A DNA stretch of 64,000 bases from Escherichia phage CMS-2020a. Below are positions 30,001 through 33,000 of this stretch, piece after piece. Positions within the stretch are counted from its first letter, which is position 1. The number at the start of each line of letters is the position of its first letter. The stretch lies in sequence record CP054387.1; one strand, 5' to 3'. Position numbers: made by a program.

Positions 30001-33000
30001 ACGCTCCAGAATCCACTCAAAATAGCTTTCCTGAATCGGGTTGAACTGCATGTCTCCCATATGCTTAAAGCTAACCAGAGAGTCATCCAGACGGGTTGTT
30101 GCGCGTCTGGCTAATTTCTCTTCAAATATCTCAATCAGTTCTGGCTGCCACAAATGCTGTGGGCGAGGCAGCTTGTCCCACAAACGTCGTGCAGCTGCGG
30201 AAAGCACGGTGGAGATAAAGTAGTCGTATGAGCAACAATAGCGGTCAGCAAACTGGCGTGCTTTCCATAGCGACGTTTTATTGGCAGTCGACAACTCCTG
30301 ATAAGGCAGGCGTTTTAACCCGGTGGTGAACGGAGCTGTTTCAAAGTGTTCGCGACCGTGCGTCAGCATGATATTTGAGTACTGACGTTTGTATGCCTCC
30401 GTAAACAGACAGGTGGCCATAAGAGGATGCATGTCGCGGTAATCAAACCACTTCGTATCGAAGAGTTCAGCCTCGTCTTTGCAGCGCGACAAACCAATGT
30501 TTTCAGCAACCCACTTATCCATAACAGCGGTATTCCACTCTGTCATGAAGTCGTACTGGTCGTTGTCGATGGTGTCGAAAAAGATTTGGCTCATGTGGCT
30601 CACCTGATAGGTAGTTACTTACTTATCACAATGAGCTGATGATAGCGATTGGTGGCAGTTTTTGGAAGTGGAAACGGAAGGGAGTTGTTCTGGTGGGTAT
30701 CTTTTGAAAGACCTGCTTCCGTATATTTAATAAGTTACTTATTATTTATATATACAGAAACAGGTCATGAATACTTAATTATTAAGCAATCTGCTCACAC
30801 GTAGTTTGTTAAGACTTGATCTAGAGGCCAGTTTCGTTAATGCACCTATTGCTTTATTCGTGATTTTTTGCTGTTCTTCTGTTAGTTCTTGCATACTTTT
30901 GAATCTGAGCAACCCCTTTCTCACTAAATCCAAAGCATCCTGATTGCGGGATAATATCCACTTTAAATAATCATCTTCAGAGAAACTGTTAAGATATGCT
31001 ATGTCACTATGATTAAATTTGCCTTCAATTATTTTGTATAAAACATTCTCTAAATTAGTCTCTTCAGGCTTCTTATCCATCAATTTTTTTTGAATTAGCA
31101 GACCTAACTTTTCGTTACCAAATATCTCTACATACAAATTCCGAAAAGCAGTATAAGCATCATCTTGGCTAACAAAGGCATCTGCATATGCCTCTATATA
31201 ACTATCACAATCAATCTTCAATCTATTTAAGATATCAATCAAGCCTATGAAGTGAGCAACAGGTATGTGTGAAAGATTGTCGTTAATTACACATTTTATC
31301 TTAGAAATAAACTCAGATTCATTGTCCTTGAATGAGTCACTAAAAATATCCCAAACATTGTTAACATCACATAAAGCCTTGTGTTCTTTATATTGTTTAT
31401 TTTTTTCTTCTATTATACCTCGAATATTGCTTTCAGTAGAAAGATAACCATTCTTGAGATAAAAATCTATGTCATCATCGAAAGCAATTTCCGCTCGTTC
31501 ATAAATAACATCAAGACTATTAATAAATGAATATACAGAATCATCCTTTTTATCATCTAACATGTGATCAAATACATGTATGTTTTTAATTGATTCTTTA
31601 AACAAGGCATAATCAACACCTGGAACACCAGAATAGTAAACCACTGAAAACAGAACCAATCTATTGATAAAACTTTCTCTAACCTTATCCTCTGCCAAGC
31701 TTAGCTCATTCCTAAGATTAACCAGAGATGTTTTTATTTTATTTAATATACGGATATTTTTAATACCTAAGTCATTTGCTAAGACTTTTAACAAAAGAAA
31801 ATCAGAATCAGTTTCATAAAAAACTTTACGTAAGTTCTTCTCAGGCGTAGGATCGTATTTTATTTCGACATCAATTACTTTTTCTCTGTACTCTAAAAAC
31901 TGTTTTTTTGCAGTTTCATCATGTAAATTATCTTCATTTAAAATTAGAACAACTTTGCAACCTTTTCTTCTTGCTAATTCATCAATAACCCCCATAATTT
32001 CTTTAACTTCTAGCGAATTACCTTTTCTTTCAACATCATCAATACAAACCAAATAATTATTAACAAATTTATACTCAAGAGATGACAGCAGGTTATCTGT
32101 TTTGAACCCAAAAAAATCGTTCTTTCCGAAATGTATTAAAAATTTTGACAAGGAGTTGTATTTCAACCATCCCCAAAACCCATTTCTATAACGAATCATA
32201 GTTCGATCCGTTTCAGATAAAATTAGTTCTTTATATTTCTTTTCATTAATTGGTGTGGCACAATGATAAAGAGCTTTTTTAATATCACCAATAGAGTTAA
32301 CCCCAAACAAAGAAACATACGAATATGCATTAAAATCTAATCCTTCAGAATGCTTAGTATAAAAACTATTCCAATAATGAGTTTTACCAACGCCCCAATC
32401 TCCTTTTATGACGGCAACCCGATGATCTGAAACTAGAAAATTTTTTAGAAATGATTCTATCGATTCCATTAGTATCAATCCTTTAATTCATATATTGGGC
32501 GTAACAAACGCCCAATATAATCAACCTTTCTTCATCAACTCTCGTTTGATTTCATCGGTACGCATCGTGACATCGGCAGCTGTGATCGCCTCGTTCAGTT
32601 TCACGATGTCCTCGATTTCCTGCGGTGACTTCTCTGCCAGATGGAAAATAGCAGCACGAATCACATCAGAGCGGGTGAATTTCTCGAAGCGAGGGATGAA
32701 CTTCATCATCTCCAGCAGTTCGAAGTATTCGTCCTCCAGTGACATTGTGCGGCTTTTAATTTTCTCTTTGCCACGAGTCGGGCGTCCCTGTGGTCTGACT
32801 GGTTGGCGCAAAGGAGTTGTGTTCTTAGCCGGTGCATCAGGCTCTTTGCGCTTTGCTAGGTCACCCATTTTCATGGACATTATTCTTCTTCCTCCAGACT
32901 CAACAGATAATCTACAAATTCTTCAAACTCGGCTTCCGCCTTTTTGTCGCGCTCGCTACCGGTCATTTCAAAGATAGAACGACCAGACTCTTCCGCATCA

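What the first reader, a model, noticed from the sequence alone, without database searches (positions are those of the whole stretch)
30775..32478. Solitary AT-rich KAP-family NTPase inserted between the partition locus and the replication module
The 567-aa protein carries the KAP-type P-loop (GDWGVGKTHYW) and Walker B (LVCIDDVER). Its gene is visibly more AT-rich than both neighbours and the protein is rich in Lys, Asn, Ile and Tyr, the usual look of a recently acquired cargo gene. KAP NTPases recur in prokaryotic conflict systems, and phage-plasmids often carry defence cargo next to partition genes. This is my strongest candidate for an uncharacterised single-gene exclusion or abortive-infection factor.
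Basis: partly seen in the sequence, partly recalled or inferred. Interest (0 to 1): 0.75.

Follow-up and report, generated by a model that had tools for sequence, protein, structure and literature searches.

The report
Swappable KAP-type ATPase, likely phage defence
A lone, very AT-rich gene for a KAP-type ATPase sits in a slot of an SSU5-like phage-plasmid where sister plasmids carry known or suspected anti-phage genes, so it is a good but untested defence candidate of an already recognised kind.

Summary
Its GC is 0.31 against 0.48-0.49 in both neighbours, the lowest 1.7 kb of the window.

The protein passes Pfam's KAP_NTPase threshold. It has intact Walker A and B motifs, no transmembrane insert, and a family-specific all-helical C-terminal half with no enzymatic fold.

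The window is an SSU5-like phage-plasmid, about 99.9% identical to E. coli O104:H4 p09EL50. The gene exactly fills a cassette slot between the parA/parB-like operon and the replication module, bounded by two hairpins. In sister E. coli plasmids the same slot holds a PD-T4-3-like GIY-YIG gene (most common), a DUF2971/PDC-S31 gene, or other small cassettes. Klebsiella and Salmonella relatives carry 40-44% identical KAP alleles there.

AT-richness is a trait of the whole family, so it is not evidence of recent arrival. dN/dS of 0.15-0.24 shows purifying selection.

The best reading is a single-protein anti-phage or anti-mobile-element sensor ATPase. It is a sister clade of PADLOC candidate PDC-S49 and has not been tested. 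I class it as a new member of a known kind, of moderate interest.

The parts
30775..32469 (-).
   Evidence: phrog_4740 matches full length at E=8e-165; dN/dS 0.23 against the 76%-identical allele
31699..32469 (-). N-terminal NTPase domain with helical lid (aa 1-257)
32380..32403 (-). Walker A motif GDWGVGKT (K29)
32026..32052 (-). Walker B motif LVCIDDVER (D144, D145, E147, R148)
31879..31890 (-). Invariant YREK motif (aa 194-197). It parallels YLQK in PifA. R195 is a candidate arginine finger; this is inference.
30778..31698 (-). C-terminal all-helical, alpha-solenoid-like domain (aa 258-564). It is family-specific and evolves faster than the N-terminal domain.
32491..32519 (-). Perfect 12-bp stem-loop between the parB-like stop (32521) and the KAP start. 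Probably a terminator or attenuator of the par operon that gates read-through into the cargo.
   Evidence: an equivalent hairpin with different sequence occurs in L003, L007, L009 and L012
30710..30766 (-). 17-bp-stem hairpin immediately after the KAP stop. It is conserved backbone and forms the downstream boundary, or terminator, of the cargo slot.
32521..33548 (-). Upstream flank: parA (32880-33548) and the 119-aa parB/ParG-like gene (32521-32880)
29854..30603 (-). Downstream flank: conserved 249-aa gene (phrog_2500, function unknown) that leads into the DnaB-like helicase and primase

Best explanation
The gene is interchangeable defence cargo in a hotspot of an SSU5-like phage-plasmid. It encodes a soluble single-protein immune sensor. 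That sensor joins a KAP-type (AAA+/STAND-like) NTPase switch to a fast-evolving alpha-solenoid recognition domain.

Proposed working. The gene has no recognisable promoter of its own. It is probably expressed at a low level by read-through from parA/parB-like across the hairpin at 32491-32519. The C-terminal solenoid binds a protein or nucleoprotein from an invading phage or other mobile element. Binding licenses NTP-dependent oligomerisation and hydrolysis through K29, D144/D145/E147, N178 (sensor 1) and R195/R240.

Because no nuclease, TIR, protease or pore domain is present, there are two likely outputs. One is direct ATP-driven sequestration or remodelling of the target. The other is a PifA-like effect that works through host or membrane factors.

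Shown: the gene's reality and selection, its domain architecture and motifs, the cassette boundaries, and the slot's alternative contents. Inferred: the defence phenotype, the trigger, oligomerisation, the output and the mode of expression.
For: KAP profile match above the curated cut-off, present in 43 of 44 relatives. All 44 relatives match the PADLOC defence candidate PDC-S49. In distant members the alignment extends to about position 420 of the 624-position profile.

The slot is a cassette site. Only 23 of 715 related plasmids carry this stretch. In an evenly spaced sample of 21 E. coli-type records, 12 have a span of about 2977 bp; in the one such record examined the cargo matches PD-T4-3 (E=1.3e-23) and a GIY-YIG domain. 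One has DUF2971, which matches PDC-S31 at E=1e-40. DefenseFinder independently found PD-T4-3 in E. coli/Shigella SSU5 phage-plasmids (bioRxiv 10.1101/2025.09.12.675607).

Diverged KAP alleles (76%, 44% and 40% identical) sit at the same slot in E. coli, Salmonella and Klebsiella plasmids. Elsewhere the family occurs as a lone gene: in an ICE, in small islands, beside IS66, beside an integrase and a PIN gene, and once directly beside a DUF2971 gene.

The gene is under purifying selection (dN/dS 0.15 in the N-domain, 0.24 in the C-domain). Its dS of 0.57 contrasts with flanks that differ by a few percent (96-98% identical between relatives), which indicates allele swapping. The C-domain diverges faster than the N-domain.

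Precedent exists. KAP NTPases fused to uncharacterised C-terminal regions protect against phage and need the Walker B motif (PMC12632615). Tmn and PifA are KAP defence proteins.
Against: No experiment exists for this protein, its family (phrog_4740, function unknown) or PDC-S49; literature searches returned nothing. The query matches only the N-terminal third of the PDC-S49 profile, at 77 bits. No effector fold was found. The hallmark KAP transmembrane insert is absent. DefenseFinder-based surveys of SSU5 phage-plasmids did not report it. Several chromosomal homologues sit among housekeeping genes with no defence neighbours. Similarity to PifA is marginal (hhalign probability 31%, 83 columns).
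Confidence: 0.55

Rival explanations
1. It is an inter-element competition factor. The protein excludes or destabilises rival plasmids or other SSU5-like phage-plasmids rather than lytic phages.
For: It is carried only on plasmids of about 110 kb in E. coli: 28 of 5426 complete genomes, never on a chromosome. It sits next to the par and rep modules. A Salmonella homologue lies inside the conjugation genes of an ICE. A Klebsiella SSU5-like plasmid reduced both phage burst and plasmid uptake, by an unknown mechanism (PMC8969562).
Against: No evidence links that Klebsiella phenotype to this gene, and the authors suspected a restriction-modification system. Alternative cargos in the slot are of anti-phage type, namely PD-T4-3. 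The KAP precedents are anti-phage.
Confidence: 0.12
2. It is a replication or partition accessory of the phage-plasmid, for example an ORC/Cdc6-like initiator or a loader for the neighbouring DnaB-like helicase.
Against: Most related plasmids lack it and carry unrelated genes in its place while keeping identical par and rep genes. Homologues occur alone in chromosomes with no par or rep neighbours. No winged-helix or other DNA-binding domain was found. The AAA+ fold hits are generic for this NTPase class and include the immune ATPases RdrA, NLRs and CED-4.
Confidence: 0.06
3. It is a counter-defence or host-takeover factor that helps the phage-plasmid itself, for example by neutralising a host immune complex.
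For: Phage-plasmid variable regions hold anti-defence genes as well as defence genes. Solenoid proteins are typical binding scaffolds.
Against: The family is widespread as lone chromosomal or ICE genes in non-phage contexts. No SSU5-like record in the phage collection carries it. Large NTPases are atypical anti-defence proteins; this last point rests on my own knowledge.
Confidence: 0.07
4. It is a conserved NTPase with a cellular, non-conflict role, such as a regulator of some protein assembly, that merely hitch-hikes in the slot.
For: Some homologues lie between housekeeping genes with no mobile or defence markers. No effector domain is present.
Against: The distribution is patchy and strain-specific (0.5% of E. 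coli genomes). The family is persistently AT-rich relative to every host examined. The location in a swap slot shared with PD-T4-3 is typical of conflict genes, not housekeeping ones.
Confidence: 0.1

Closest known systems
KAP NTPase fusion proteins with uncharacterised C-terminal regions (EF_KAP and three metagenomic KAPs; PMC12632615, 2025 preprint)
   Same: A single polypeptide with a KAP NTPase domain followed by about 300 residues that match no known domain. They are carried on mobile elements. Defence needs the Walker B motif. An E. faecalis plasmid protein of similar layout (612 aa, beside a serine recombinase, MazF and Fic) aligns at 25% identity over the whole NTPase domain.
   Different: EF_KAP is described with two N-terminal transmembrane helices, and this protein has none. 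The C-terminal regions are unrelated. I could not confirm that the pE035 protein is EF_KAP, because no supplement is held.
PADLOC candidate system PDC-S49
   Same: It is the best defence-library match: E=2.8e-22 for the query, and all 44 relatives match. It has similar length (about 620 against about 570 aa) and is also a single gene.
   Different: The query aligns only to profile positions 8-214 of 624. Distant relatives reach about position 420 at 65-94 bits. This makes it a sister clade, not a member. PDC-S49 is itself only a prediction, with no paper found.
PifA of plasmid F
   Same: It is a KAP-class P-loop protein on an enterobacterial plasmid, encoded beside the replication and partition genes (repE, sopAB), and it excludes phage T7. 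The two share the Walker B hhhhDDxxR motif and a following Y-x-x-K motif.
   Different: PifA is 741 aa and is co-encoded with the repressor PifC. Similarity is marginal (hhalign probability 31%, 83 columns). PifA is membrane-associated, which I state from my own knowledge.
Tmn and QatA (KAP NTPases in defence systems)
   Same: They have a KAP-type NTPase, and ATPase motifs are required for defence.
   Different: Tmn has two transmembrane helices inserted in the P-loop domain. QatA works within a four-gene system. Neither produced a PADLOC hit at E<=1; that the library holds their models is my own knowledge.
STAND/Avs-type and ORC/Cdc6-type AAA+ NTPases
   Different: There is no N-terminal effector domain. 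The nSTAND3 match is below threshold (16.4 against 27.2 bits). No winged-helix DNA-binding domain is present.

Membership tests
KAP NTPase (Pfam PF07693; Aravind et al. 2004) | Profile match above the curated gathering score | tested here: met
   24.8 bits against a cut-off of 20, covering aa 15-257. 43 of 44 relatives match, best E=6.8e-14.
KAP NTPase (Pfam PF07693; Aravind et al. 2004) | Walker A GxxGxGKT and Walker B hhhhDDxxR motifs | tested here: met
   GDWGVGKT and LVCIDDVER are invariant in 44 sequences.
KAP NTPase (Pfam PF07693; Aravind et al. 2004) | Transmembrane helices inserted within the P-loop domain (typical of the family, not universal) | tested here: not met
   The maximum 19-residue Kyte-Doolittle mean is 1.35, and 0.2 in the insert region between Walker A and B. 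Only 1 of 44 relatives reaches 1.6. The insert at aa 97-125 has low confidence in the model.
KAP NTPase (Pfam PF07693; Aravind et al. 2004) | Alpha-helical extension after the NTPase domain | tested here: met
PADLOC PDC-S49 | Full-length match to the family profile | tested here: not met
   Only profile positions 8-214 of 624 align, at 77 bits. Distant relatives reach about position 420.
PifA / Tmn / QatA orthology | Significant sequence similarity beyond the generic NTPase motifs | tested here: not met
   No PADLOC hit at E<=1 other than PDC-S49. hhalign against PifA gives probability 31% over 83 columns.
STAND NTPases | Profile match to a STAND NTPase family; NTPase plus helical sensor repeats | tested here: inconclusive
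Anti-phage defence gene (operational definition) | Located in a variable hotspot shared with known defence genes | tested here: met
   The same slot holds a PD-T4-3-like gene and DUF2971/PDC-S31 genes in sister plasmids. A homologue lies beside a DUF2971 gene in L013.
Anti-phage defence gene (operational definition) | Reduces phage infection when expressed; depends on the NTPase motifs | not testable with these tools
   Needs plaque and liquid infection assays. No published test was found.

The most novel reading that the evidence does not exclude
The family numbers at least 1,100 clusters at 50% identity and always has the same two-domain layout. It could be a distinct class of membrane-free, effector-less KAP immune sensors. 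Such sensors would stop infection without killing the cell, through ATP-driven capture or remodelling of a phage protein by the alpha-solenoid. Phage-plasmids would swap alleles of it at a dedicated par-linked cassette site to change specificity.
Probability: 0.2. Interest if true: 0.6.

Novelty: new member of a known kind. Interest (0 to 1): 0.4.

Why it matters
SSU5-like phage-plasmids are common in clinical E. coli, Shigella, Salmonella and Klebsiella. This work places a hairpin-bounded cassette slot next to their partition operon and shows that it exchanges single-gene defence cargo. If the KAP protein is active, it adds a large, widespread family that current defence finders (DefenseFinder, and PADLOC at full coverage) do not call. 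Its allelic series of 76%, 44% and 40% identity, set in nearly isogenic backbones, would be a natural system for mapping how a KAP NTPase chooses its target. It would also bear on the design of phage therapy against strains that carry these plasmids.

Tried and rejected
Searches and tests that gave nothing useful:
- NCBIfam returned no family.
- A PDB sequence search with the family profile gave only a spurious citramalate synthase hit at E=0.02.
- Foldseek against the PDB found nothing below E=1e-3, only generic AAA+ matches.
- Literature searches for 'PDC-S49' and 'WP_014962310' returned nothing. The hotspot paper (iLund4u) does not mention SSU5 or KAP. Supplements of the KAP preprint are not held.
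- The sigma-70 promoter and terminator consensus scan was no better than shuffled sequence and gave no usable promoter for the gene.
- Direct and inverted repeat searches found no flanking direct repeats or transposon ends around the cassette.

Ideas considered and dropped:
- I tested whether the C-terminal domain is shuffled onto other N-terminal modules. It is not.
- The TTG start at 32478 was rejected, because the Shine-Dalgarno-like AAGGA directly abuts it.
- 'Recent acquisition' inferred from AT content was rejected.

Full report
**1. The observation**

The minus-strand ORF 30775..32478 is present. RefSeq annotates the same gene from the ATG at 32469 (564 aa, 'P-loop NTPase fold protein'). 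The sequence favours that start: AAGGA lies 10 nt upstream of the ATG but directly abuts the TTG.

GC is 0.306 (GC3 0.246), against 0.489 and 0.482 in the flanking genes. No other 1.7-kb stretch of the window is as low (window mean 0.452, sd 0.033).

An open frame of this length in DNA this AT-rich is not chance. Its probability is about 1e-23, and the longest open stretch on the opposite strand is 78 codons.

**2. What the element is**

The 3.8 kb around the gene is 100.0% identical, as BLAST reports it, to plasmid p09EL50 of E. coli O104:H4 2009EL-2050 and to a Shigella sonnei plasmid. The gene itself scores 99.9% against p09EL50. The region is 86% identical to Salmonella phage SSU5 over parA and the parB-like gene. 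The window is therefore an SSU5-like phage-plasmid.

The gene order on the minus strand is parA (MipZ/ParA-type), a 119-aa parB/ParG-like gene, the KAP gene, a conserved 249-aa gene, a DnaB-like helicase, then a primase.

**3. What the protein is**

- **Family.** Pfam KAP_NTPase matches above its curated cut-off (24.8 against 20 bits). 43 of 44 diverse relatives match, with a best E of 6.8e-14. NCBIfam has nothing. phrog_4740, of unknown function, matches end to end.
- **Conserved residues.** Besides the Walker motifs, N178 is nearly invariant, and YREK 194-197, N238, R240 and K244 are invariant. I read these as sensor-1, arginine-finger and sensor-2 candidates. That reading is inference.
- **No membrane segment.** The segment between Walker A and B is where classical KAP proteins carry transmembrane helices. 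Here it is not hydrophobic, and no 19-residue window in the protein reaches the usual threshold.
- **Fixed architecture.** A profile of this C-terminal half found 1,621 cluster representatives among 1.84 billion (1,146 at E<=1e-10). In full-length hits it always lies at about residues 250-580 of proteins 550-600 aa long. The two halves therefore form one fixed architecture and not a shuffled fusion.

**4. The slot**

Homology to relatives that lack the gene breaks at 30768-30772 and at 32520. These are exactly the ends of the ORF plus its 51-nt leader.

The leader holds a perfect 12-bp stem-loop at 32491-32519. Other spaced cassettes carry a hairpin of different sequence but similar shape at the same place. 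These are the pMTY18780-3 cassette, the 76% E. coli allele, and the Klebsiella and Salmonella KAP alleles. Only about 20 nt separate the hairpin from the ATG, and no promoter-like site stands out. I therefore infer that expression is by attenuated read-through from the par operon.

A 17-bp-stem hairpin at 30710-30766 lies directly after the stop codon. It belongs to the conserved backbone.

**5. What else occupies the slot**

Only 23 of 715 related plasmid records carry the whole stretch. An evenly spaced sample contained 21 E. coli-type records. Their spans across the slot were as follows.

| Span across the slot | Records | Cargo |
|---|---|---|
| about 2977 bp | 12 | In the one record examined, a 255-aa gene matching PADLOC PD-T4-3 (E=1.3e-23) with a GIY-YIG domain |
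| 3283 bp | 3 | In the one record examined, a 352-aa unknown |
| about 3800 bp | 2 | The KAP gene |
| 3274 bp | 1 | A two-gene cassette of unannotated 140-aa and 250-aa proteins |
| 2866 bp | 1 | DUF2971 |
| 4224 bp | 1 | A record with an IS3 element annotated under the match; the rest of its cargo was not examined |
| 2507 bp | 1 | Partial match |

Phage Cyrano and SSU5 itself carry DUF2971 proteins there, and the Cyrano protein matches PADLOC candidate PDC-S31 at E=1e-40.

A DefenseFinder survey independently reported PD-T4-3 in E. coli/Shigella SSU5 phage-plasmids and did not mention any KAP gene. That PD-T4-3 is an experimentally validated single-gene system is my own knowledge (Vassallo et al. 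2022).

**6. Evolution of the gene**

KAP alleles occupy the same slot in other lineages. There is a 76% allele in E. coli, a 44% allele in Salmonella and a 40% allele in Klebsiella. About 116 full-length copies occur in the plasmid collection, 75 of them in Klebsiella.

In complete E. coli genomes the gene is found in 28 of 5,426, always on plasmids, most of about 110 kb.

Against the 76% allele, dS is 0.57, while the flanks of related plasmids differ by only a few percent (96-98% identical). dN/dS is 0.15 in the N-domain and 0.24 in the C-domain. The alleles are therefore old, functional, and moved between near-identical backbones by recombination. The C-domain diverges faster than the N-domain (mean identity 26% against 42%).

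Every homologue examined has 27-35% GC, whatever its surroundings (40-55%). AT-richness is thus a property of the family and does not date the insertion.

**7. Other contexts**

More distant full-length relatives (28-36% identical) are lone genes in several settings:
- inside the conjugation genes of a Salmonella ICE;
- between housekeeping genes in Pragia and Vreelandella;
- beside IS66 and a T5orf172 gene in Oleispira;
- beside an integrase and a PIN gene;
- directly beside a DUF2971 gene in a Pseudomonadales genome.

No neighbour is conserved across these contexts, so the protein works alone.

**8. Comparison with known systems**

The best defence-library match is the PADLOC candidate PDC-S49, which all 44 relatives match. 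The query covers only profile positions 8-214 of 624, and distant relatives reach about position 420 at 65-94 bits. This is a sister clade, and PDC-S49 itself has no published test.

KAP NTPases are an accepted defence class. PifA excludes T7. Tmn cooperates with Gabija. A 2025 preprint showed that several KAP proteins with unknown C-terminal regions protect Enterococcus. Walker B was required, and protection was equal at low and high MOI.

An E. faecalis plasmid protein of like layout aligns at 25% identity over the NTPase domain. PifA aligns only marginally.

**9. Verdict**

The argument from AT content is wrong, and the abortive-infection mechanism is unsupported.

I rate anti-phage or anti-mobile-element defence by a sensor-ATPase at 0.55. 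The output step is unknown. The main alternatives are exclusion of rival plasmids, a maintenance accessory role, counter-defence, and a non-conflict role.

This is a new member of a known kind: single-gene KAP NTPase defence candidates. It is worth a bench test but is not surprising to a specialist.

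Noticed in passing
window 33828-34665 (+): A TacA-like antitoxin (PF08681, E=9e-26) and a GNAT acetyltransferase toxin sit on the other side of parA. In pMTY18780-3 (L003 5399-6519) and pGMI17-003_2 (L012 5412-6589) two unrelated hypothetical genes replace this pair. This makes it a second variable slot flanking the par operon.
   Followed up: partly
window 32491-32519; L003 about 4165-4195; L007 about 5960-5985; L009 about 5953-5982: The hairpin between the parB-like stop and the cargo start keeps its shape (10-13 bp GC-rich stem) while its sequence differs completely between lineages. 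Cassettes that abut parB directly (Cyrano, SSU5) lack it.
   Followed up: partly
window 30710-30766: A 57-nt near-perfect palindrome (17-bp stem) lies at the downstream edge of the slot. It is conserved in Cyrano, SSU5 and the Salmonella plasmid. It could be a terminator, or a recombination or operator site for the 249-aa gene.
   Followed up: partly
window 22081-22904 (-): A cluster of four tRNA genes: Ser(TGA), Thr(TGT), Tyr(GTA) and Asn(GTT). The KAP protein is unusually rich in Asn and Tyr, which may be coincidence.
   Followed up: no
L013 10001-12613: In a Pseudomonadales genome the KAP homologue is immediately followed by a DUF2971 gene. That is the family occupying the KAP slot in SSU5 and Cyrano. 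The pair is inserted among metabolic genes.
   Followed up: no
L019 1285-2343; L003 2976-4143; L004 3956-5000: Other cargos of the same slot have no family match: a 352-aa protein, and a two-gene cassette of 140-aa and 250-aa proteins whose sequences contain long hydrophobic stretches (by eye; not tested). The cassette is also present in SSU5 as genes 035/036. These are further untested defence candidates.
   Followed up: partly
L020 2446-5761 (plasmid F): The pifC-pifA operon of plasmid F also lies next to that plasmid's replication and partition genes (ccdAB, repE, sopAB). This echoes the par-rep placement of the KAP gene here.
   Followed up: no
window 32521-32880 (-): The 119-aa gene after parA has no Pfam match. 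It is annotated 'RelE/ParE putative toxin' in phage Cyrano and 'hypothetical' elsewhere. Its role as the centromere-binding partner of ParA is assumed from position only.
   Followed up: partly
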